Below are positions 7,148 to 64,000 of a DNA stretch of 64,000 nt, one piece after another (the first letter of the stretch is position 1; the number at the start of each line of letters is the position of its first letter). Source of the DNA: Chiloscyllium plagiosum (Eukaryota); NCBI RefSeq assembly GCF_004010195.1, contig NC_057749.1:5745339-5809338 (forward strand), written 5' to 3'. The notes beneath the pieces are model-generated. The model did no database searches. It was not told the origin of the DNA and worked only from the letters and a program-made list of their open reading frames with translations. Both the position numbers and the translations under genes were made by a program.

Positions 7148-8830
7148 AGGAAAAATGAGGTACGAAGGTAAACTGGCCAAGAATATTAAGGAGGATAGTA
7201 AAAGCTTTTTTAGGTATGTGCAAGGCAAAAAAATGGTTAGGACAAAGATTGGGCCCTCGAAGACAGAAACAGGGGAATATATTACTAGGAACAAAGAAAT
7301 GGCAGAGGAATTAAATGGGTACTTCAGATCTGTGTTCACTTGGGAAGACACAAGCAATCTCCCTGAGGTAACAGTGGCTGAAGGACCTGAACTTAAGGGA
7401 ATTTATATTTGCCAGGATTTGGTGTTGGAGAGGCTGTTAGGTCTGAAGATTGATAAGTCTCCGGGGCCTGATGGCCTGCATCCCAGGGTACTGAAGGAGG
7501 TGGCTCGAGAAATCGTGGATGCGTTGGTGATTATCTGCCAGAGTTCAATAGATTCGGGGTCGATTCCTGAGGATTGGAGGGTGGCTAATGCTATACCACT
7601 TTTTAAGAAAGGTGGGCGAAAGAAAGCAGGAAATTATAGACCAGCTAGTCTGACCNNNNNNNNNNNNNNNNNNNNNNNNNNNNNNNNNNNNNNNNNNNNN
7701 NNNNNNNNNNNNNNNNNNNNNNNNNNNNNNNNNNNNNNNNNNNNNNNNNNNNNNNNNNNNNNNNNNNNNNNNNNNNNNNNNNNNNNNNNNNNNNNNNNNN
7801 NNNNNNNNNNNNNNNNNNNNNNNNNNNNNNNNNNNNNNNNNNNNNNNNNNNNNNNNNNNNNNNNNNNNNNNNNNNNNNNNNNNNNNNNNNNNNNNNNNNN
7901 NNNNNNNNNNNNNNNNNNNNNNNNNNNNNNNNNNNNNNNNNNNNNNNNNNNNNNNNNNNNNNNNNNNNNNNNNNNNNNNNNNGTGAGTGGGCAGGTGCAT
8001 GGCAGATGCAGTTTAATGTGGGTAAATGTATGGTTATCCACTTTGGTGGCCAGAACAGGAAGGCAGATTACTACCTAAATGGAGTCAAGTTAGGTAAAGG
8101 GGCAATACAACAAGATCTAGGTGTTCTTTTACACCAGTCAATGAAGGCAAGCATGCAGGTACATCAGGTAGTGAAGAAGGCTAATAGCATGCTGGCCTTC
8201 ATAACAAGAGGAATTGAGTATAGAAGCAAAGAGGTGTTTCTGCAGCTGTACAGGGCCCTGGTGAGACCACAATTGGAGTACTGTGTGCAGTTCTGGTCTC
8301 CAAATTTGAGGAAAGACATTCTGGCTATTGAGGGAGTGCAGCGTAGGTTCACGAGGTCTATTCCTGGAATGGCAGGATTACCTTACACTGAAAGACTGAA
8401 GTGACTGGGCTTGTATACCCTTGAGTTTCGAAGATTGAGAGGGGATCTGATTGAGACGTATAAGATTATGAAAGGATTGGACCCTCTGGCAGTAGGAAAC
8501 ATATTTCCACTGATGGGTGAGTGTCGAACCAGAGGACACAGCTTAAAAATACGGGGTAAACCATTTAGGACAGAGCTCAGGAGAAACTTCTTCACCCAGA
8601 GAGTGGTGGCTGTGTAGAATGCTCTGCCCCAGAGGGCAGTGGAGGCCACTCTCTGGATTCATTTAAGAAGGAGTTGGATAGAGCTCTCAAAGATAGTGGA
8701 ATCAAGGGTTATGGAGATAAGGCAGGAACAGGATACTGATTAGGAATGATCAGCCATGATTATATTGAATGGCGGTGCAGACTCGAAGGGCTGAATGGCC
8801 TACTCCTGCACCTATTGTCTATTGTCTATC
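7148..8830 (+). mobile_element. Relatively young CR1 LINE ORF2 fragment (N gap at 7656-7982)
   Basis: [53 protein letters not shown]. Confidence 0.95.
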
Positions 8831-11119: not shown

Positions 11120-11325
11120 AGAGTGTTGGTGCTGGAGAATCACAGCCGGTCAGGCAGCATTCGAGGAGCAGGAGAGTCGACGCTTCAGGAATAAGCCCTT
11201 CATCACATTCTTGATGCTCAAAACATCCATTCTCCTGCTCTTCAGATGCTGCCTGGCCGGCTGTGGTTTTCCAGCACCAAAACTCTTCGAGTCTGATCTC
11301 CAATGTCTGCAGTCCTCACTTTTTA
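11120..11325. mobile_element. Inverted (palindromic) Penelope pLTR remnant
   Basis: Arms gtgctggagaatcacagccggtcaggcagcat and atgctgcctggccggctgtggttttccagcac. Confidence 0.72.
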
Positions 11326-13037: not shown

Positions 13038-13300
13038 AAAATCACACAACACCAGGTCACAATCCAACAGGTTTAATTGGAAGCACGGGCTTTCAGAGCG
13101 CTGCACCTTCATCACGTGGTTGTGGAGTGTAAGGTCGTAAGACACAGAATTTATAGTCCACTTATACTCCACAACCACCTGATGAAGGAGCAGTGCTCCG
13201 AAAGATAGTGCTTCCAAATAAACCTGTTGGACTATAACCTGGTGATGTGTGATTTTTAACTTTGTCAATCCCAGTCCAACACCGGCATCTCCAAATCATG
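13038..13300. mobile_element. Inverted Penelope pLTR (second family) with a hammerhead motif at 13176-13210
   Basis: Long inverted arms; CAC-CTGATGA-A-GGAGC(AGT)GCTCC-GAAA-GA-TA-GTG. 15-bp TSD ACTACCAACATTGTA at 13023 and 13301. Confidence 0.8.
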
Positions 13301-13514: not shown

Positions 13515-14015
13515 TAGGAGAAAATGAGGACTGCAGGTGCTGGAGATCAGAGTCGAGAGCGTGGTGCTGGAAAAGCACAGCAGGTCAGGCAGCATCTGTG
13601 GAGCAAGAGAATCCATGTTTCGGGCATAAGCTCTTCATCAGGAATGAGGCTTGTGGGTCAGGGCTGAAAGATAAATGGGAGGGGGGTGAGTTTGGAGAGA
13701 GGTAGCTGGGAAAGCGATAGGTTGATGAAGGTGAGGGAGAAGGTGGTAGGTCAGAGGGGGCAGTGATGGATGGGTCCAGAGGGCAGTGCTGAGTTGGAGT
13801 CAAAATTAGAGTGGTGCTGGAAAAGCACAGCAGGTCAGGCAGCTTCCGAGGAGCAGGAAAACCGATGTTTCGAGCAAAAGCCCTTCATCAGGAAGGGTTT
13901 TTGCCCAAAACGTTGATTTTCCTGCTCCTCGGATGCTGCCTGACCGGCTGTGCTTTTCAAGCGCCACTTTAATCTTGACTCTAATCTCCAGCATCTGCAG
14001 CACCCACTTCCGCCC
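13515..14015. mobile_element. Penelope pLTR fragment (minus) followed by a palindromic pLTR (13808-13970)
   Basis: Same family as 463-554 and 27040-27170. Degenerate CTGATGA...GAAA cores on the minus strand near 13610-13645 and 13861-13894. Confidence 0.78.
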
Positions 14016-24061: not shown

Positions 24062-24145
24062 CTTAACTTTCGACCCAAAGAGCAGACAATCTGCTCTGCG
24101 GACTGCTTTCCACCATTTGTGAGCTTCAATCAAGGAAAATCCTTC
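24062..24145 (-). CDS. REC114: REC114 coding exon 3 (EGFSLIEAHKWWKAVRRADCLLFGSKVK)
   Basis: tttttcag acceptor, AAG|GTAGGA donor, 84 bp. Matches human EGFSLIGSKDWLKIVRRVDCLLFGTTIK. Confidence 0.95.
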
Positions 24146-26418
24146 CTGAAAAATCAAGGGCATTAGGTCAATCACCGGTGAACCTCCTGAAACAGAATAA
24201 AACAGAAGAATACTTCTTCAACTCTGGTTCCAAGAAAGCCTGTATAGTGCCTGGGAAAACCCCTCTAGTATTCATGGTTAAAATGTTTTCAATGTTTAAC
24301 TTCAAAACATTCCAGAGTTCAGTTCGGAACATTCCTTTGTTGAGAAACACTGCTGTATCAGGGGAGTTCAGAGCAAACCAGTTGCTACATAAGTTATTTC
24401 TCATTTGTGGAGCTTCTAAGCCAGGAAAGTTTGGATAGGAATCTTCACAGAAAGTTCAGTTCTAACTATCAGAACTGAGCAAACTTCCATGTTAGCGCGG
24501 GCTATGAAAGTAACTGTAAAATTAGCTCACAGCTCATGATAAAGAAATTAGGGAAAGTCAATTAAAAGGATAGATGTGAAATTTCTCTGGGACAGAGTCT
24601 CTGTAAAGGATGATGTTGGGAAACAAGTTAATATTTATTTAATACCTACATTGTTTGATTATTTTGTTTGTGTAATAAGCTTAGTTCTGCTATTAATAAC
24701 ATCTGTAGACACAGTTAATATGTTTCAGCGATTAACCAACTGCAAAAGTTAAAAAAACTGCAGATCCTAGAAATCAGAAACAAAAACAAATGGTTGGGGA
24801 AAGTTCAGCAGGTCTGGCAAAATAAAGTCAGAGATGTACAGCACGGAAACACACCCTTCACTCCAACTCATCCATGCCGACCAGATTATCCTAAATTAAT
24901 CTAGTTCCATTTGTCAGCATTTGACCTCAATCCCTTTAAACCCTTCCTATTCACGTACCCATCCAGATGTCTTTAAATGGTGTAATTGTACCATCTGGCG
25001 GGAGAAATCAGAGTTAACATTTCAGGTCCAGAGCTGCAAGTTCTGAGGACTTTGATTAACTTTGTTAACTTTGATTTGTCCCCACAGATGCTGACAGACC
25101 TGCTGAGCCTTTCCACCAATTTTTTGTACCAAAAGTTAATTGCAAAAAGCTAAAAGTACACTTTTTGAAATCAGGTTTCATTCTGGGATCCAACTTGCCC
25201 AGTATCATCATCAGTTGCACATGCCTTCATATAAATCACTGGTTAGCCCTCAGTTGAACAGTTATATCCAATTTAGGACATCAATCTGGGAATCACATTA
25301 AGGTTTTAGAAGCGACCTAGAGAACTCTACAGAAATTGTGCAGTGCCGAAAAGTTCAAATGCTGGAATATTCCTATAGGTTCAACTGTAGATTGCTGCAA
25401 TTAGAAGTTTGAGATTGTCCTGTAAATTGCCAATCTCTATGTATATTGTATGTATACATAATATATAGATACGTTCCATATGGGATTTCACTATTTGCAT
25501 TCATCGTTGCAAAGTTAAAACTTACTTCACCTATCCTTTGGGTGGGAATATGCATCTAAAGTATAGTTTAGAATGAAACAGCATTAACTATTTGAAACTT
25601 GGGTTCAGCGTTAAATTTATTTCTACTTTCATTGTTACTTTAATGCTGTAAACAAGAGACATGACAAAGAATGCAATAATAGTTTTTGAATGTTTTTGTT
25701 CAATTTATTTAGTCTTTCAAAAAGCTACTCTAGAAATGGAGCAGTATCTGGAAGATGTCTTCAGGTGATATGCGAGTCATCTGAAAGGCTATAGGTATGA
25801 AAGAAGTCCAAGTTTCTCAGCGAGTTGCACAATCCTACAATTCAGTCATGTAGCTGTACATTAGGGTGTTGCCTGACTACACAATGCTTTTGGCATTTTA
25901 AAATGCATTGATAACGCAAGTTACCTTCTCAACTGTGTCCTTGAGAAATGCAAAGTGTTGAGGGGTCAGTATCAGTTTGTGGAACTATGTGCCCACCAGA
26001 GGTGCTCCAGGTTGTGTGGGGTTGAGTTTTGGAAATTCCAACCACAGGCTTTGCAGCATAGTTCAATAGTTGAATCACAGGACAACAATGCTCCAAACTC
26101 AGTACCCTTATTCCCACCCCCACCCCCACCCCCTTCTAAATCCCCAATGCTGTTATTGCTAGGCTATTAAACTGAAAGCCCCAGGTAATGTTCTGGTGAC
26201 TACAAACCTACCGACTCCCACAGCTACCTGGACTACACCTCCTCCCATCCTGCCCCCTGTAAAAACGCCATCCCATTCTCCCAACTCCTTCGTCTCCGCC
26301 GCATCTGCTCCCAGGAGGACCAGTCCAAAATACGTACAACACAGATGGCCCCCTTCTTCAAGGACCGCAATTTCCCCCCCGACGCGGTCGACGGTGCCCT
26401 CCACCGCACCTCCTCCAC

Positions 26419-26789
26419 NNNNNNNNNNNNNNNNNNNNNNNNNNNNNNNNNNNNNNNNNNNNNNNNNNNNNNNNNNNNNNNNNNNNNNNNNNNNNNNNNN
26501 NNNNNNNNNNNNNNNNNNNNNNNNNNNNNNNNNNNNNNNNNNNNNNNNNNNNNNNNNNNNNNNNNNNNNNNNNNNNNNNNNNNNNNNNNNNNNNNNNNNN
26601 NNNNNNNNNNNNNNNNNNNNNNNNNNNNNNNNNNNNNNNNNNNNNNNNNNNNNNNNNNNNNNNNNNNNNNNNNNNNNNNNNNNNNNNNNNNNNNNNNNNN
26701 NNNNNNNNNNNNNNNNNNNNNNNNNNNNNNNNNNNNNNNNNNNNNNNNNNNNNNNNNNNNNNNNNNNNNNNNNNNNNNNNNNNNNNNNN
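26419..26789. other. Assembly gap (others at 7656-7982 and 63750-63796)
   Basis: Runs of N. Confidence 1.
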
Positions 26790-27039
26790 CTTTTCCAGCA
26801 ATAAAGTTTCAACTTTGATCTCCAGCATCTGCAGATCTCACTTTCTCCTCGAAGATTTCAACCTACTGCGAATCCTCTTACAAGGATGCCTTCCTTGAAG
26901 AAGCTCTCTGCCTCTCTCTACAAAGATTTCAGTGAGTCCCTCTCTCACTGCACACCCCAGGTCATCTCCTCTGCCAACTCCCCTCCTCCAAGTCCCTCCT
27001 CCCTACCTTTTATCTTCTCCTGCTGAACACTCTCTGCTC

Positions 27040-27075
27040 ATTCCTGAAGAAGGGCCTGTGCCCGAAACGTCGAAT
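27040..27075 (+). ncRNA. Minimal type I hammerhead ribozyme motif in the pLTR
   Basis: AUUC-CUGAAGA-A-GGGC(CUGU)GCCC-GAAA-CG-UC^GAAU: stem I AUUC/GAAU, stem II, palindromic ACGU in place of stem III. Confidence 0.75.
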
Positions 27076-28479
27076 CTCCTGTTCCCTGGATGCTGCCTGA
27101 CCTGCTGTGCTGTTCCAGCAATAAAGTTTCAACTTTGATCTCCAGCATCTGCAGACCTCACTTTCTCCTCAATGTTCTGGTGACCCAGGTTTGAGTCCTG
27201 CCATGGCAGATGGTGGAAACTCAATAAAACCTGGAACTAATCATGACCGAAAAACCATTGCTGATTAACATGGAAATCCATCTGGTTCACTAACGTTCTT
27301 GAGGGAAGGAAATCTGCCAGCCTTATCTGGTCTGGCCTACATGCGACTCCAGCAATGGGTTGTCTCTGAATGGCCATCTGGGGTAGTTAGGGACAGGAAA
27401 TAAATGCTGGCCTGACCAGTGATGCCCATATTTCATGAACGAAAATAAAATTGAATTGTGGAAGAATTTTCTGTGCAGTGCTAAAAGAATGCTTTCATTA
27501 ACTGATATGTTATGCATGAACTGACTTCTTCTCTACAGCAAAGCTGATCAGAGAAAGAATAATTAATTTATTTACTTCAAGTATGGCACATAGATATGAA
27601 TACAGATTATCTATGTGATATGCTCAATTTCACTTGTTATTATGCAAGATTTCATGAATATTCAAAGGCTGCTATTATTTCCTACTGATGAATAACACTA
27701 AATGTACTGCACATACTACTGAGCAGAACTTGGATTAACAAAAACAAGTTGGCTCCCTTGCTTAATTTATAAAGGAATCAGTCCTTTCACCTGACTAATT
27801 GACTATCTCTGTCTCATTGTGTCCACTGCAGAGTTGGTGCAACCACTTTGGACGTTATACTTAGCCAGATACCAAATACTGTCAAGCTTCCCATTGTCTC
27901 AGGTTTTTGGAATTATTACATTCTTATATTTCTATCACGTGTGGTTTTAAGGTTCAAAAATACACTCTGATTCGAAGTTTTTAAAAAAAAACAGTGGCTT
28001 CCACCAGAAATTTCTTTCACTATGTGTTTCAACATTTTGTAATATCCCAGATTTCACGCAGTCAGAATAGAGTCAGAGATTCATTTACATTTATAATGGA
28101 TTGCACCATCTCCCTTTTTGAACAATACACTTGAACAACTTCAGCCAATTGTTAACTGGATATTTTAATTAGCTACTATGGTAATCGATTAAAGATGACA
28201 AGATAGCTACGAATGGAGGAACATCATTTTTCCTATTTTAGATGAACCAGTTGAAAGCTGTTTTAAAGAAAAATCCACATTTATATAGCACCCGTTCTGA
28301 CTTCAGACCACCCAGAAATGCTTTACAGCCAGTGGCGAGCACTTGAAGTGTAGCCACTGTTGTGATATGGCAAGCACAATAGAATAACTAATAACAACTT
28401 ATAATTATATCAAACAGTGTAGGTGCTGGAAATACTTAGATCTGGCAGCTACTATACAGAAAGAAAGTGAGATAACTTG

Positions 28480-29000
28480 GATATAGTTTTGCTCGCTGAG
28501 CTGAAAGGTTCATTTCCAGACGTTTCATTACCTTACTAGGTAACATCTTCAGTGGACCTCATGTGAACCAATGCTGAAAATTCCTGCTTTCTATTTATAT
28601 GTTTGGGTTTCTTTGGGTTGGTGATGTCATTTCCTGTGCTGATGTTATTTCCTGTGGTGAAGTCACATCCTGTTCCTTTTCTCAGGGGGTGATAGATGGG
28701 GTCTAACTCGATGTGTTTGTTGATAGACCTCCGGTTGGAATGCCATACTTCTAGGAATTCTTGTGCGTGTCTTTGTTTGGCTTGTCTTAGGATGAATGTA
28801 TTGTCCCAGTCGAAGCGCTGTCCTTCCTCATCCATATGTCAGGATACTAGTGAGAGAGGGTCATGTCTTTTTGTGGCTAGTTGGTGTTCATGTATCCTGG
28901 TGGCTAGTTTTCTGCCTGTTTATCCAATGTAGTGTTTGTTACAGTCCTTGCATGGTATTTTGTAAATGACGTCAGTTTTGCTCATTGTCTGTTTAGGGTC
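28480..29000 (-). mobile_element. Penelope-like element 3' fragment (GIY-YIG endonuclease C-terminus plus pLTR)
   Basis: Frame with YKIPCKDCNKHYIG..GRKLATRIHEHQLA and FDWDNTFILRQAKQRHAQEFLEVWHS. Confidence 0.88.
28515..28556 (-). ncRNA. Minimal hammerhead ribozyme motif on the REC114 sense strand (intron 2)
   Basis: UCCA-CUGAAGA-U-GUUACCU(AGUA)AGGUAAU-GAAA-CG-UC^UGGA. Confidence 0.72.
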
Positions 29001-40909: not shown

Positions 40910-41176
40910 GTTAAGCATCAAGCACATCATTGCTGTGGGTCTGGAGTCACATGTAGGCCAGACCAGGTAAGGATGGCAGATTTCTTCACTAAAAGGACAT
41001 TAGTGAACCGGGTGGATTTTACTGACAATGAATTCATGGTCATCATTAGATTCTTAATTCCAGATATTTAAATTTCCATCATCTGCCATGGTAGGATTCA
41101 AACGCAGGTCCCCGGAATGTTATCTGGATCTTTAGATTAACAGTTCAGCGATAATACCACTTGGCCACTGTCTCCT
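40910..41176 (-). mobile_element. Second SINE family (other copies at 26150-27450, split by Penelope, and 60020-60335)
   Basis: Shared core ctggagtcacatgtaggccagaccaggtaaggatggc. The 3' tail of the 27400 copy resembles the Crack-like LINE tail aataaatgctggcc. Confidence 0.65.
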
Positions 41177-47260: not shown

Positions 47261-48179
47261 TCTATCATCTTTGGAGTTTGTTGTACAAGCTTATAGGATT
47301 AATCCAACATCGTAGGTAAGTAACCGATAACTCATAATATGCTTTGAAGTACACTGGCAAAGGACAAATGACTTTTTTGCCAAAGCACTCAAAACATCCA
47401 TGGCACAGGGTACATCACGAACAACCAAAGTTGCCAAAGAATGGCATAATCATACAAAATATTTTGCAATTTATAACTTCACAGCTAATGCACCTGGACG
47501 TCTATGCATTTTATAAATTCACTGCCCAAGTGAGACCATGACAAATGTCATCTTGGCAATAAGAGCAAGTTAAGCGTCTGCCAAAGTGACATGTTCAATC
47601 ACGAGCGTCACCTATCAATGTAAATCTAGAATTGCCAAGTGACAGGATTCCTAAATGAGACAACCTGGAGAAGGTCGAAGAATGCAGTGCTAGAAAAGCA
47701 CAGATCAGGCAGCATCCGAGGAGCAGGAAAGTCAACCTTTCGGGCATAACCCGCAGCTGATGAAGATCTCCAGCATCTGCAGCCCTCACTTTCACATCAC
47801 TTCAGCGTGTCACTGCATTAAGTATGAATTCAGTAGTTAAAACCAGTTTGTGAAAAGTATTTAAATGTACGTTCTGCAAACATACCTGACTCCAACTTTG
47901 TTTAGATACAACTCCTGTCCAGTCTCTTCACAATGAAATCTCTAACACTGTGCACTGATACAAACATGCACAGAGCCTTCTCTTAAGCAGAATGGATGGA
48001 GATCTAATCAGCCAACAATCTTGCCATGTAAGCAAAGTTCTGCGTAGCTGCAATTCAAATTACCAGTCTTGTTCTGGGAGATCTCACGTGCACTCTTTAC
48101 ATGGCACACCAGGAACATGTTATTCAGGTTCCTCTGGAAAATAGCATTCAGTTCCTCTGAACTTCTGTTCCCATGGAGG

Positions 48180-49903: not shown

Positions 49904-49996
49904 TAGTAGGGTTGTCCCACCTCGAGAGATTAGGAAATGACCTGACTGCACAATCGTTAGCAAAAGAAGGCCCTTTTCCGGATCAGACTCAAAAAC
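49904..49996 (-). CDS. REC114: REC114 coding exon 2 (VFESDPEKGLLLLTIVQSGHFLISRGGTTLL)
   Basis: ttccttgtag acceptor, CTA|GTAAGT donor, 93 bp, phase 0/0. Matches human VFDSNEESGYLVLTIVISGHFFIFQGQTLL. Confidence 0.93.
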
Positions 49997-55279: not shown

Positions 55280-58200
55280 ACCTTGCCCAGGGTGCGCACC
55301 ACCCCCTCTCCCCGTAGCCAAGTCGCTCAGGGTGTGCATTAACCCACTCTCCCCTTATCCAATCGCTCAGGGTGCACACCACCCCCTCTCCCCTTACCCA
55401 ATCGCTCAGGGTGCACACCACCCCCTATCGCTCAGGGTACACACCACACCCTCTCCCCTTACCCAATCGCTCAGGGTACACACCACACCCTCTCCCCTTA
55501 CCCAATCGCTCAGGGTACACACCACACCCTCTCCCCTTACCCAATCGCTCAGGGTACACACCACACCCTCTCCCCTTACCCAATCGCTCAGGGTACACAC
55601 CACACCCTCTCCCCTTACCCAATCGCTCAGGGTACACACCACACCCTCTCCCCTTACCCAATCGCTCAGGGTACACACCACACCCTCTCCCCTTACCCAA
55701 TCGCTCAGGGTACACACCACACCCTCTCCCCTTACCCAATCGCTCAGGGTACACACCACACCCTCTCCCCTTACCCAATCGCTCAGGGTACACACCACAC
55801 CCTCTCCCCTTACCCAATCGCTCAGGGTACACACCACACCCTCTCCCCTTACCCAATCGCTCAGGGTACACACCACACCCTCTCCCCTTACCCAATCGCT
55901 CAGGGTACACACCACACCCTCTCCCCTTACCCAATCGCTCAGGGTACACACCACACCCTCTCCCCTTACCCAATCGCTCAGGGTACACACCACACCCTCT
56001 CCCCTTACCCAATCGCTCAGGGTACACACCACACCCTCTCCCCTTACCCAATCGCTCAGGGTACACACCACACCCTCTCCCCTTACCCAATCGCTCAGGG
56101 TACACACCACACCCTCTCCCCTTACCCAATCGCTCAGGGTACACACCACACCCTCTCCCCTTACCCAATCGCTCAGGGTACACACCACACCCTCTCCCCT
56201 TACCCAATCGCTCAGGGTACACACCACACCCTCTCCCCTTACCCAATCGCTCAGGGTACACACCACACCCTCTCCCCTTACCCAATCGCTCAGGGTACAC
56301 ACCACACCCTCTCCCCTTACCCAATCGCTCAGGGTACACACCACACCCTCTCCCCTTACCCAATCGCTCAGGGTACACACCACACCCTCTCCCCTTACCC
56401 AATCGCTCAGGGTACACACCACACCCTCTCCCCTTACCCAATCGCTCAGGGTACACACCACACCCTCTCCCCTTACCCAATCGCTCAGGGTACACACCAC
56501 ACCCTCTCCCCTTACCCAATCGCTCAGGGTACACACCACACCCTCTCCCCTTACCCAATCGCTCAGGGTACACACCACACCCTCTCCCCTTACCCAATCG
56601 CTCAGGGTACACACCACACCCTCTCCCCTTACCCAATCGCTCAGGGTACACACCACACCCTCTCCCCTTACCCAATCGCTCAGGGTACACACCACACCCT
56701 CTCCCCTTACCCAATCGCTCAGGGTACACACCACACCCTCTCCCCTTACCCAATCGCTCAGGGTACACACCACACCCTCTCCCCTTACCCAATCGCTCAG
56801 GGTACACACCACACCCTCTCCCCTTACCCAATCGCTCAGGGTACACACCACACCCTCTCCCCTTACCCAATCGCTCAGGGTACACACCACACCCTCTCCC
56901 CTTACCCAATCGCTCAGGGTACACACCACACCCTCTCCCCTTACCCAATCGCTCAGGGTACACACCACACCCTCTCCCCTTACCCAATCGCTCAGGGTAC
57001 ACACCACACCCTCTCCCCTTACCCAATCGCTCAGGGTACACACCACACCCTCTCCCCTTACCCAATCGCTCAGGGTACACACCACACCCTCTCCCCTTAC
57101 CCAATCGCTCAGGGTACACACCACACCCTCTCCCCTTACCCAATCGCTCAGGGTACACACCACACCCTCTCCCCTTACCCAATCGCTCAGGGTACACACC
57201 ACACCCTCTCCCCTTACCCAATCGCTCAGGGTACACACCACACCCTCTCCCCTTACCCAATCGCTCAGGGTACACACCACACCCTCTCCCCTTACCCAAT
57301 CGCTCAGGGTACACACCACACCCTCTCCCCTTACCCAATCGCTCAGGGTACACACCACACCCTCTCCCCTTACCCAATCGCTCAGGGTACACACCACACC
57401 CTCTCCCCTTACCCAATCGCTCAGGGTACACACCACACCCTCTCCCCTTACCCAATCGCTCAGGGTACACACCACACCCTCTCCCCTTACCCAATCGCTC
57501 AGGGTACACACCACACCCTCTCCCCTTACCCAATCGCTCAGGGTACACACCACACCCTCTCCCCTTACCCAATCGCTCAGGGTACACACCACACCCTCTC
57601 CCCTTACCCAATCGCTCAGGGTACACACCACACCCTCTCCCCTTACCCAATCGCTCAGGGTACACACCACACCCTCTCCCCTTACCCAATCGCTCAGGGT
57701 ACACACCACACCCTCTCCCCTTACCCAATCGCTCAGGGTACACACCACACCCTCTCCCCTTACCCAATCGCTCAGGGTACACACCACACCCTCTCCCCTT
57801 ACCCAATCGCTCAGGGTACACACCACACCCTCTCCCCTTACCCAATCGCTCAGGGTACACACCACACCCTCTCCCCTTACCCAATCGCTCAGGGTACACA
57901 CCACACCCTCTCCCCTTACCCAATCGCTCAGGGTACACACCACACCCTCTCCCCTTACCCAATCGCTCAGGGTACACACCACACCCTCTCCCCTTACCCA
58001 ATCGCTCAGGGTACACACCACACCCTCTCCCCTTACCCAATCGCTCAGGGTACACACCACACCCTCTCCCCTTACCCAATCGCTCAGGGTACACACCACA
58101 CCCTCTCCCCTTACCCAATCGCTCAGGGTACACACCACACCCTCTCCCCTTACCCAATCGCTCAGGGTACACACCACACCCTCTCCCCTTACCCAATCGC

Positions 58201-58580
58201 TCAGGGTACACACCACACCCTCTCCCCTTACCCAATCGCTCAGGGTACACACCACACCCTCTCCCCTTACCCAATCGCTCAGGGTACACACCACACCCTC
58301 TCCCCTTACCCAATCGCTCAGGGTACACACCACACCCTCTCCCCTTACCCAATCGCTCAGGGTACACACCACACCCTCTCCCCTTACCCAATCGCTCAGG
58401 GTACACACCACACCCTCTCCCCTTACCCAATCGCTCAGGGTACACACCACACCCTCTCCCCTTACCCAATCGCTCAGGGTACACACCACACCCTCTCCCC
58501 TTACCCAATCGCTCAGGGTACACATCACACCCTCTCCCCTTACCCAATTACTCAGGGTACACACCACCCCACATTACCCT
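55280..58580. repeat. 39-bp minisatellite (ATCGCTCAGGGTACACACCACACCCTCTCCCCTTACCCA)n; 79 identical units at 55427-58507 with degenerate flanking units
   Basis: Seen directly; the 13-aa periodic ORFs confirm a period of 39. Confidence 0.98.
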
Positions 58581-58619: not shown

Positions 58620-59045
58620 ACCTCCCAGGTTTTCTGGCCTCCCCCGGGCGGCAGGAACCGCCCATACCGCTTCAGCGGCCACTGGGTGTGAGGCAGGTCC
58701 GCCTGAGGCTGGCTGTGGGCCGGCGGCTGCTCCCGCTCAAGCCCGGGGCCGCCTCCGCGACCACACTCGGATTCCAGCAGCAGCCCCGCGGGCCGAGCGG
58801 CCGCCATCACTGATGAAGATTGGTGGGTGGGGGGGGGGGGGGAGTGCTAACGATGTAAATCAACCAATCAACAGTGGCAGGTGACCCGCCAATCACACTG
58901 AAGAATCAACGGACCCTGACCAATTAGATTGCAGCTCGATTTCTATTGGTTTACTGAAAGGCGGGAATCACAGTGTCCTACTGCGACGGTGCACTTTAGA
59001 CCAATCAGATTTAGAGGCGGGAAACGGGCTACCCAATGACCGTGC
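58620..59045 (-). promoter_or_regulatory. REC114 CpG island and TATA-less promoter with CCAAT boxes, E2F-type and MYB-type motifs
   Basis: CpG-dense. CCAAT at 58864, 58889, 58920, 59001, 59033; ATTGG at 58819, 58945; GGCGGGAA at 58960; GGCGGGAAA at 59016; CAACGG at 58907. Confidence 0.75.
58622..58807 (-). CDS. REC114: REC114 coding exon 1 (62 codons, MAAARPAG...QWPLKRYGRFLPPGGGQKTWE)
   Basis: ATG at 58807 in a CpG island. WPLKRYGRF and TWE match the vertebrate REC114 N-terminal PH-domain motifs (human WPLQRYARC...TWK, from memory). Ends at a GAG|GTGAGG donor, phase 0. Confidence 0.9.
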
Positions 59046-59091: not shown

Positions 59092-59620
59092 TTCCTACAG
59101 TGTGGAATCAGGCCATTCGTCCCATTGAGTCCACACTGACCCTATGAAGATTATCCCCATCTCCCTACTTTATCCCTGTAACCTTGCATTCCCCATGGCT
59201 AATTCACCTAGCGTACATATCCCTGGACACTAAGGGCAACTTAGGAGAAAGTGAAGACTGCGGATGCTGGAGGTCAGAGTCAAGAGTATGGTGCTGGAAA
59301 AGCACAGCCGGTCAGACAGCATCCGAGGAGCAGTAGAGCAAGAATGAGGTCTGATGAAGGGCTTATGGCCAAAACATCAATTCTCCTGCACCTCGGATAC
59401 TGCCTGACTGGCTGCACTTTTCCAGCACCACACTCTTCGACTGTGGGCAACTTAGCATGGCCAATCCAGCTAACCTTTGGACTATGGAAGGAAATTGGAG
59501 CACCCAGAGGATACCCACACCGACACAGGAAGAATGTTCAAACTCCACACAGTCACCCGAGGGTGGAATTGAAGCCAGGTCCTCAGCACTGTAAGGCAAC
59601 AGTGTTAACCACTGATCCAA
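59092..59620 (-). mobile_element. HE1 SINE directly upstream of the REC114 promoter, interrupted by a pLTR
   Basis: Consensus match on both sides of 59245-59444. Confidence 0.82.
59245..59444. mobile_element. Palindromic Penelope pLTR nested in an HE1 SINE
   Basis: Inverted arms; GGGCAACTTAG duplicated at 59234 and 59445; dead hammerhead core (GAAA changed to AAAA). Confidence 0.75.
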
Positions 59621-59760: not shown

Positions 59761-60589
59761 CAACAGCAAACCTCCTGGTCCTTTGCTCATTAAGGTCTTC
59801 CGCTCTTAAAACGGCAACTCAGCAAAGATAAGGCATGATCATAGTGAAAGGTGAAGCAGGCTCGAGGAACTGGCAACTGTATAGTCTACTCCTGATCCTA
59901 TTTCTTATGTTCTTAATTGCAAGTAAGCTGTTGCTGAAGGTCACTTTCTCAGATCTCCAGAGAAAGAGTAATCCAGAATTAAGTTTTAGGCTAACCAGGA
60001 TATCACAAACAAAAGTTTTTTTTAAATTGATTCATAGGATGAGGGAATTACTGGCCAGGCCATCATTTATTGTCCAAAGGGCAGTTAAAAGGCCACCACA
60101 TTGGTTCTGGAGTCACATGTTGGCCAGACCAGGTAAGAATGGCTGTTTCTTTCCCTAAAGGGCTTTAATGAACCAGATGAGTTTTCCCTGACAATCATAA
60201 TTACCCATAAACTCTTCATTCCAGGGATTTTTGAATTCAAATTTCATTATTTGCCAACATGGGATTTGAACCCAAGTCCCAGAACATTGCATTGGTCTCT
60301 GGATGAGGAATCCAATCATAATACCACTTGGCCAAACACTCAGCTGCACTGTCATTTTAGCAGGATGGATTATTCACAGAATAACAGCATTCTTAAGGTG
60401 CAGAAGGAAGCCGTTTGGCCCATCATGCCTGCATCAGCTGCTCAGACCAATTCGCCATAGACATTTCTCTCCATGAGACAATGACAATTGATTATATTGC
60501 TTCAGGGTCACTACTCCACGCCAAGCATAGACAAGTCATGGAGTCCAAGAGTCATAGTCATATAGCCATACTGCACAGAAGTAAACCCT

Positions 60590-63585: not shown

Positions 63586-64000
63586 CAAAGACCTTATTCT
63601 GGATTGTTGAAGAAAACTCTCAGACTCAGACCTTGCGAACTGATTAGTTTATTACATGATATGTCATGGGGAATTCTCCGTCCTAACTGTGGCTCGGTGT
63701 TATTCCAAAGTACATCAGGATACTACAGGATTATATAGAGAAAACAGCTNNNNNNNNNNNNNNNNNNNNNNNNNNNNNNNNNNNNNNNNNNNNNNNAAAG
63801 GGAGGAGACACTATCTTGAGAAGGAAGATAAGGACAACCTTTCATATTACCTCATAGTAAGGAATGCATAGCCAGCAAAGTTCTGGCTGGGGACACAAAA
63901 TGAAACTCTCAGCCGAATCAGGAAAATGGCTTCCAGACAAATAATGTTAACTTTTCCCCAATATGAATGTTCCTGGCATTGAACTAGACACACTTCAAAC

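What the first reader, a model, noticed from the sequence alone, without database searches (positions are those of the whole stretch)
26201..27170. Apparently intact minimal hammerhead ribozyme in a young tandem-pLTR Penelope insertion; predicts a ~320-nt self-excised RNA
Seen: 27040-27075 folds as AUUC-CUGAAGA-A-GGGC/GCCC-GAAA-CG-UC^GAAU with an intact core and retained CpGs. The pLTR end repeats at exactly 320 bp, and a 14-bp TSD bounds the insertion. Known: Penelope-like pLTRs carry minimal hammerheads whose palindromic stem III (here ACGU) allows cleavage as dimers. Inference: a second hammerhead should lie at about 26720-26755, inside the N gap, so one transcript could form a double hammerhead and release a ~320-nt retrozyme-like monomer. 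It is antisense to REC114.
Basis: partly seen in the sequence, partly recalled or inferred. Interest (0 to 1): 0.7.

Follow-up and report, generated by a model that had tools for sequence, protein, structure and literature searches.

The report
Shark Penelope insertion with minimal hammerhead
This is a broken, two-piece copy of a very common shark jumping gene that carries the small self-cutting RNA motif typical of its class, so the motif is real but ordinary, and the predicted 320-base RNA looks like an accident of how this one copy landed.

Summary
The sequence observations hold. There is a minimal type I hammerhead with every core base at 27040-27075, an exact 14-bp target duplication, and a 61-nt pLTR end repeated at 320 bp. 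It lies in REC114 intron 2, antisense to the gene. The element is a 5'-truncated Neptune-type Penelope-like retrotransposon of a shark.

The 320 bp is not a pLTR monomer. It is a 35-nt leader plus the first 30 ORF codons (the Penelope 'tail'), joined at a 2-nt microhomology to a second copy truncated in its 3' UTR. Other loci of this very abundant family join at other points (at least 104-264 nt), so 320 looks locus-specific.

A second hammerhead in the gap is likely (about 0.8) but unseen. The 371-N gap cannot hold the 760+ nt a colinear copy needs. In context the motif's stem I is predicted at about 1%. Published assays show low, mostly dimer- or protein-dependent cleavage for this class.

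Minimal hammerheads in pLTRs have been known since 2014, and this scan noted the same kind before, in this genome and others. Verdict: new member of a known kind, low interest.

The parts
26187..26200 (+). Left target-site duplication (14 bp), inside an older SINE-like repeat
   Evidence: Identical to 27171-27184. Flanks contiguous on uninterrupted repeat copies near 41 kb and 60 kb.
26201..26418 (+). Copy A, 5'-truncated: RT thumb codons of a Neptune-type Penelope-like ORF
   Evidence: 38 homologues among 52 candidates; best are shark proteins at 74-76% identity, E 2e-27. Relatives carry RVT_1 and GIY-YIG and the C-x2-5-C-xx-C linker.
26419..26789 (.). Assembly gap, 371 N; probably under-sized, or copy A has an internal deletion
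   Evidence: Relatives have 208-221 aa (624-663 nt) left after this point in P0010, P0015 and P0032, and at least 136 nt of 3' UTR must also fit.
26720..26755 (+). Inferred hammerhead of copy A (nominal coordinates; under Ns, not seen)
   Evidence: Inference: needs copy A's pLTR to extend 70 nt left of 26790.
26790..26850 (+). 3' end of copy A's pLTR
   Evidence: 59 of 61 identical to 27110-27170. 82 contigs of run X1 leave the reference at 26849 into unrelated sequence.
26851..26975 (+). 'Tail': 35-nt leader plus ORF codons 1-30 (ATG at 26886) of the next tandem unit
   Evidence: 97% identical over 30 aa to the first residues of shark protein P0039. Residues 25-145 of P0039 match the N-termini of full-length RT+GIY-YIG proteins (E 2e-9, 5e-7). 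36 contigs of run X9 run on from 26975 with a consensus that continues the ORF.
26974..27170 (+). Copy B: 5'-truncated 3' UTR/pLTR, joined to the tail at a 2-nt CC overlap (26974-26975)
   Evidence: 17 (X1) and 30 (X9) contigs enter at 26974 from a different shared upstream sequence. 245, 112 and 240 contigs and 237 reads leave at 27169.
27040..27075 (+). Minimal type I hammerhead: stem I 27040-43/27072-75, core CUGAAGA, extra A 27051, stem II 27052-55/27060-63, GAAA, palindromic ACGU 27067-70, predicted cut after C27071
27013..27017 (+). UCUUC predicted to pair with core bases 27046-27050 and block the active fold
   Evidence: Pair probability 0.69-0.94 in the 4 folds that include it; computed only.
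27171..27184 (+). Right target-site duplication
27185..27450 (+). Rest of the older repeat that the insertion split
   Evidence: 70-74% identical to copies at 40941-41117 and 60020-60197.
49922..49996 (-). REC114-like exon 2 (upstream boundary of the host intron)
   Evidence: PF15165 positions 34-58, E 6e-7.
24062..24145 (-). REC114-like exon 3 (downstream boundary of the host intron)
   Evidence: PF15165 positions 64-91, E 3e-9.

Best explanation
This is one partial-tandem insertion of an abundant shark Neptune-type Penelope-like element (PLE), and the hammerhead is the family's standard pLTR passenger. SHOWN: the order TSD - RT thumb - gap - pLTR end - leader and ORF codons 1-30 - 2-nt overlap - truncated 3' UTR with hammerhead - pLTR end - TSD. 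INFERRED: the element's endonuclease nicked the target. RT began at the pLTR end (27170), copied about 197 nt through the hammerhead, then jumped at the CC overlap. It restarted about 90 nt into the ORF of an uncut tandem read-through (or circular) RNA and copied back through tail, pLTR and endonuclease region, stopping in the RT thumb. Repair left the 14-bp duplication. The 320-nt spacing is therefore the sum of two chance truncation lengths. The motif could cut only as a dimer through ACGU/ACGU, probably slowly or with protein help. At this locus it is most likely inert: no ORF, antisense to the host gene, core predicted to be sequestered.
For: Protein identity of both coding pieces. Family contigs part from the reference on both sides of 26974/26975. 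Among the 15 joints shown (of 243), 4 link tail ends at 26919-26921 or 26975 to pLTR restarts at 27006, 27037, 27040 and 27138. These give units of at least 234, 203, 264 and 104 nt. Partial tandems, tails and assembly trouble are described as typical of PLEs (PMC8557442 and PMC3846280 passages). RT starts inside the 5' ORF, uncut RNA is the main template and the hammerhead needs protein in an Anolis PLE (PMC11167929). Stem I about 0.01 in context. Double hammerhead -13.1 vs dimer MFE -18.3 kcal/mol. 12 older pieces of the pLTR end at 8 other places in this window.
Against: The gap content is unseen, and no listed contig spans it. Only 15 of 243 joints and 24 of 1771 loose ends were shown, so I could not count how many loci share the exact 26975|26976 junction. 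The four supporting joints have sides of 26-28 nt, and for three the letters between are not known. A deletion inside a full second unit gives the same sequence. The 125-nt tail is longer than the 30-40 nt described. Nearest-neighbour energies ignore tertiary contacts and co-transcriptional folding. Without the 27013-27017 segment stem I reaches 0.12-0.52.
Confidence: 0.75

Rival explanations
1. Same parts, different origin: 26851-27170 is a full second unit that lost ORF +91 to the 3' UTR by a microhomology deletion, in the donor or after landing. The hammerhead is again a passenger.
For: The 2-nt CC overlap at the junction. Microhomology-mediated internal deletions are described in PLE copies (PMC3846280 passage). 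The gap may also hide a deletion.
Against: Other loci end their tails at the same two zones (26919-26921; 26973-26975) with different restart points. That fits fixed RT start sites better than random deletions.
Confidence: 0.15
2. One reading: both hammerheads are intact, a plus-strand transcript covers both, they fold as a double hammerhead and release a 320-nt RNA that circularises like a non-LTR retrozyme.
For: Intact core and perfect 4-bp stems. Spacing is 320 if copy A's motif exists, within the 150-450 bp of animal retrozyme repeats (PMC7229834 passage). Axolotl dimers cut far better than monomers. Retrozymes are proposed to derive from pLTRs, mean 363 bp in one chondrichthyan (bioRxiv 10.64898/2026.07.22.740005).
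Against: The motif is the minimal PLE type, not the canonical type with loop 1-loop 2 contacts found in retrozymes. Minimal dimers cut weakly (PMC4209133). Only 1 of 9 predicted Xenopus dimers cut in vitro. Stem I about 0.01 in context. Unit length varies between loci. No plus-strand promoter upstream of both motifs is shown.
Confidence: 0.08
3. The left and right contigs around the gap are mis-joined, or belong to two separate insertions, so the tandem picture is partly an assembly artefact.
For: The gap is too small for a colinear copy. The RT piece has five near-private T-to-C changes close to the gap, and no perfectly matching contig for it is among the pieces listed.
Against: One exact TSD pair encloses everything, and the flanks rejoin into one older repeat. 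Both sides are the same family, in the same orientation and the expected order.
Confidence: 0.05

Closest known systems
Minimal hammerheads (min-HHR) in pLTRs of metazoan Penelope-like elements, including fish Neptune, Poseidon and Xena (Cervera and De la Pena 2014, PMC4209133; parts 1-2 of 4 read)
   Same: Type I, short helix I, extra base between positions 9 and 10.1, G10.1-C11.1 pair, palindromic 15.2-16.2, no helix III, sited in the pLTR, many dispersed truncated copies.
   Different: Helix II is 4 bp (7-8 bp in the schistosome families). Shark families were not named in the parts I read.
Partial-tandem EN+ PLE insertions with 'tail' (Craig et al. 2021, PMC8557442, passages; Arkhipova et al. 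2013, PMC3846280, passages)
   Same: 5' truncation, partial tandem, tail running into the first ORF codons, TSD, assembly gap; relatives have the Neptune/Nematis C-x2-5-C-xx-C linker.
   Different: The tail is about 125 nt and internal, against 30-40 nt. Both copies are truncated. The TSD is 14 bp against 8-10 bp in the rotifer examples.
Anolis Poseidon element PAc (Frangieh et al. 2024, PMC11167929; parts 1-2 of 4 read)
   Same: Insertion ends map to RT start sites near the ORF start; hammerhead in the pLTR.
   Different: In PAc the hammerhead overlaps the start codon and RT starts at +111-118. Here the cut site is about 135 nt upstream of the ATG, and ends fall at -36, about +35 and about +90 (inferred). 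Different clade.
Animal non-LTR retrozymes (Cervera and De la Pena 2020, PMC7229834, passages; Li et al. 2026 bioRxiv, parts 1-3 of 5 read)
   Same: About 300-nt spacing of type I hammerheads, long TSD, PLE ancestry.
   Different: Minimal rather than canonical motif. No array and no fixed monomer. Embedded in a coding PLE fragment. No RNA shown.

Membership tests
EN+ Penelope-like element (Neptune type) | PLE-type RT | tested here: met
   73-aa thumb fragment hits 38 proteins, several with RVT_1. On its own it had no Pfam match.
EN+ Penelope-like element (Neptune type) | C-terminal GIY-YIG endonuclease with C-x2-5-C-xx-C linker | tested here: inconclusive
   Present in close relatives: linker in 5 of 6 proteins checked; GIY-YIG in P0005, P0015 and weakly P0001. 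In this copy the region would lie in the gap. Neptune versus Nematis was not tested with a tree.
EN+ Penelope-like element (Neptune type) | pLTR from partial tandem, optional tail, TSD | tested here: met
PLE minimal hammerhead | Core CUGANGA...GAAA...UH with helices I and II | tested here: met
PLE minimal hammerhead | Extra base 9/10.1, G10.1-C11.1, palindromic 15.2-16.2 | tested here: met
   A27051; G27052-C27063; C27068-G27069, against the list in PMC4209133.
PLE minimal hammerhead | Covariation of helices across copies | tested here: inconclusive
   8 window copies (7 decayed): 77.6% of cells paired, above all 6 slid controls (14-50%), but not above shuffles (135 of 500 reach the covariation score).
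PLE minimal hammerhead | Self-cleavage as a dimer | not testable with these tools
   Needs an in vitro assay; energies only.
Rfam hammerhead families | Match to a curated covariance model | tested here: not met
   No hammerhead hit at E<=10 in 25500-28000.
Non-LTR retrozyme | At least two consecutive repeat units, each with a complete hammerhead | tested here: inconclusive
   One motif seen; only 61 nt of repeat visible; the second motif is under Ns.
Non-LTR retrozyme | Non-coding monomer of a defined family length | tested here: not met
   The unit holds ORF codons 1-30 and sits behind an RT fragment. Other loci give at least 104-264 nt.
Non-LTR retrozyme | Canonical type I motif with helix III and loop-loop contacts | tested here: not met
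   No helix III in the monomer. Loop contacts not assessed. Li et al. also admitted minimal motifs in their search.
Non-LTR retrozyme | Abundant monomeric linear and circular RNA | tested here: inconclusive
   Only about 2% of one poly(A) single-cell run was laid, a library type that cannot show such an RNA.

The most novel reading that the evidence does not exclude
This locus is a retrozyme at birth. A PLE template jump put two intact minimal hammerheads 320 nt apart around a piece that also holds the ORF-start sequence where the PLE protein is thought to bind and begin reverse transcription. A dimer-cut, ligated 320-nt circle could then be mobilised in trans. That would give a one-step molecular route for the proposed origin of animal retrozymes from pLTRs, and the many junction variants in this shark family would be the pool from which such elements are selected.
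Probability: 0.1. Interest if true: 0.55.

Novelty: new member of a known kind. Interest (0 to 1): 0.2.

Why it matters
As it stands, little: it adds a shark example of an arrangement described in 2014, and earlier notes of this scan report the same kind. Its modest value is as a compact, natural two-hammerhead test construct. It also hints that this Neptune family starts reverse transcription at about three fixed sites, which has been measured only for a Poseidon element. It would matter more if the 320-nt circle were found, because that would link PLE partial tandems directly to the birth of retrozymes. No effect on REC114 is expected, since its pre-mRNA carries the reverse complement.

Tried and rejected
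Whole-genome search: no genome is held for this window, so copy numbers and junction counts could not be made directly. Rfam scan: no hammerhead. Pfam on the two coding pieces alone: nothing significant. Direct BLASTP of the 30-aa piece to full-length invertebrate PLE proteins did not align the N-termini; the link rests on P0039. The first descriptor scan returned nothing because of a pattern fault and was redone. Metagenome scan with the hammerhead pattern: 0 matches. Sequencing-run search: no RNA holder listed. RNA run X21 (poly(A) single-cell, about 2 in 100 read, 1697 records laid): no place where many molecules begin or end, no reads in the 15 joints shown, no depth over the unique intron, 95% of laid reads run on into other sequence. 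This library type cannot show a non-polyadenylated circle, so I treat it as uninformative. The gap could not be closed, and presence or absence of the insertion in other individuals could not be read from the rows shown. Covariation on window copies was not above shuffles. Lunse et al. (PMC5785218) is not held; I saw only its title in a reference list. PMC6155905 passages held nothing on sharks. Five paper searches listed no title on shark PLE hammerheads. The supplements of the Li et al. preprint, which I could not see, may list shark retrozyme families like this one. A look-up of earlier findings by sequence gave nothing. Rejected: a chance motif; a chance TSD; an effect through REC114 pre-mRNA (wrong strand).
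Full report
1. Observation. The stated motif is there. 27040-27075 has the core CUGAAGA, an extra A, a 4-bp stem II with a CUGU loop, GAAA, CG, UC and a 4-bp stem I; the predicted cut follows C27071. Folded alone it gives exactly stems I and II (-7.1 kcal/mol), although 45 of 200 shuffles fold as well. The exact pattern occurs once in the window and in 0 of 100 shuffles, which says little because the pattern was taken from the site. A relaxed descriptor is the fairer test: 4 sites in the window (464+, 13179+, 27044+, 28552-) against 1 in 20 simulated windows. Rfam has no hammerhead hit at E<=10. The TSD is 14 of 14 identical and the pLTR end repeats 59 of 61 at 320 bp. The TSD is real: each flank aligned separately to two uninterrupted copies of an older repeat, and the flanks meet and overlap at the 14-mer on both. 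Four REC114-like exons run down the minus strand in profile order, and the insert is in intron 2, antisense.

2. What the element is. 26201-26418 encodes the thumb region of a Penelope-like RT. The best of 38 homologues are bamboo-shark proteins at 74-76% identity. Relatives go on through a C-x2-5-C-xx-C linker into GIY-YIG, the Neptune/Nematis signature (PMC8557442 passages). That it is Neptune rather than Nematis is my inference from the vertebrate host; no tree was built. After this point three complete relatives have 624-663 nt of ORF left, and copy B shows at least 136 nt of 3' UTR upstream of the repeat. A colinear copy needs 760 nt or more where the assembly has 371 N. The gap is under-sized or hides a deletion.

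3. The 320-bp unit. It is not a second pLTR. 26886-26975 translates to 30 residues that are 97% identical to the start of an epaulette-shark protein, P0039 (1 hit among 6 candidates). Residues 25-145 of P0039 match the N-termini of two full-length RT+GIY-YIG proteins (E 2e-9 and 5e-7). Contigs of public runs confirm the break (reads counted from 90% likeness). In run X9, 36 contigs continue past 26975 with a consensus that extends this frame. In X1 and X9, 17 and 30 contigs enter at 26974 from another shared upstream sequence. So 26851-26975 is a leader plus ORF start, the Penelope tail, and 26974-27170 is a second copy truncated in its 3' UTR, with a 2-nt overlap. The main 3' end of the family is 27169/27170 (245, 112 and 240 contigs; 237 reads). 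Summed contig depth over the element is 10^4 to 10^5 times that of the unique flank; the tool warns this is no copy number, but the family is clearly very abundant. Of the 15 joints shown (243 in all), four join tail ends at 26919, 26919, 26921 and 26975 to restarts at 27006, 27037, 27138 and 27040. These correspond to units of at least 234, 203, 104 and 264 nt. They have short sides (26-28 nt) and I read them as other loci. I could not count loci with this locus's own junction, since most rows were not shown.

4. Age. For youth: a perfect TSD, three CpGs in the motif, and CpG o/e 0.9 in the RT piece against 0.19-0.24 in flanks. In the related organism B (flanks 3-4% different) the left-flank contig stops matching at 26187 with 54 letters left over; I infer, without proof, that the insertion is absent there. 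Against extreme youth: 2 of 61 differences between the twin ends, and five near-private substitutions in the RT piece. The older pLTR pieces in the window (12 pieces at 8 places) are 75-91% identical to it.

5. How it works. The inferred history is one target-primed event with two starts: at the pLTR end, then, after a jump at CC, about 90 nt into the ORF of a tandem read-through or circular template. This follows the Anolis result that RT starts inside the 5' ORF, that insertion ends mark these sites, that uncut RNA is the main template and that the hammerhead cuts only with protein (PMC11167929). A deletion within a full second unit would give the same letters and is the main rival. A second hammerhead in the gap needs only 70 more bases of copy A's pLTR; I put it at about 0.8, and the cut sites would then be 320 nt apart whatever the gap size. 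Activity is another matter. ACGU can form the 4-bp helix III in trans, but the full double hammerhead scores -13.1 against -18.3 kcal/mol for the dimer MFE. In the four folds that include 27013-27017, that UCUUC pairs with core bases 27046-27050 (0.69-0.94) and stem I falls to about 0.01 or less; without it stem I is 0.12-0.52. These are nearest-neighbour estimates only. Published tests agree: no cut as a monomer and low cut as dimers or trimers (PMC4209133); 1 of 9 predicted Xenopus dimers cut (Li et al.). On the other side, axolotl dimers with canonical motifs cut well (PMC7229834). A review passage puts PLE transcription starts in the upstream pLTR (PMC6765202); whether a transcript here would include both motifs is unknown. 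The one RNA run laid was uninformative.

6. Comparison. It meets the sequence features listed for PLE minimal hammerheads and the structural features of partial-tandem PLE insertions. It works, if at all, like a dimer-dependent PLE hammerhead. It resembles a non-LTR retrozyme in spacing only; the tests for a fixed non-coding monomer and a canonical motif were not met, and the rest are open. Earlier notes of this scan describe the same kind in this genome (e1-7858806, e1-7789271) and in others (e1-7814458, e1-7857333, e1-7808612). They are unchecked and are not counted as support; one gave the lead to PMC3846280.

7. Verdict. Observation largely right; interpretation right for the motif, wrong for the unit, unproven for the RNA. 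New member of a known kind, interest 0.2. The bold reading, a retrozyme caught at birth, has probability about 0.1 and would deserve about 0.55.

Noticed in passing
window 26285-26409: All 5 difference rows shown for the RT piece are places where the window has C and at least 99.2% of family contig depth in each DNA run reads T (26285, 26325, 26351, 26385, 26409, with 83 rows not shown). All change an amino acid. They read as A-to-G on the element's antisense strand, and an antisense template has been hypothesised for PLEs (PMC3846280). But 3 of 5 have a 5' G on that strand, which from recall is disfavoured for A-to-I editing and fits sequencing error beside a gap. Unresolved.
   Followed up: partly
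window 28515-28556, minus strand: A second, different minimal hammerhead (7-bp stem II with a G-U closing pair, ACGU palindrome, 4-bp stem I) lies in the sense direction of REC114 intron 2, probably the end of another PLE family. If any motif here could touch REC114 pre-mRNA it is this one.
   Followed up: partly
window 13175-13212, plus strand: A third hammerhead-like motif (CUGAUGA core, 5-bp stem II) of yet another sequence type.
   Followed up: no
window 11130-11322, 13815-14009, 47688-47799, 59243-59427: Older pLTR ends of the same family lie as inverted, head-to-head pairs that meet near the hammerhead, the known inverted-pLTR pattern.
   Followed up: partly
window 27037-27045 (family coordinate): 6 of 12 older pieces in the window and three junctions from other loci begin at the 5' edge of the hammerhead rather than at its cut site; 1 of 12 begins near the cut site (27075). 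This may be an RT stall at the structure, or only loss of similarity upstream in older subfamilies.
   Followed up: partly
window 55285-58570: A 78-bp tandem array of about 42 near-identical units starts right after the REC114-like first exon (58622-58807, minus strand).
   Followed up: no
protein P0039: A shark protein named 'mucin-2-like' by its source begins with the N-terminal domain of this Penelope-like ORF, so the name is probably a mis-annotation.
   Followed up: yes
window 7656-7982 and 63750-63796: Two more N gaps (327 and 47 bases).
   Followed up: no
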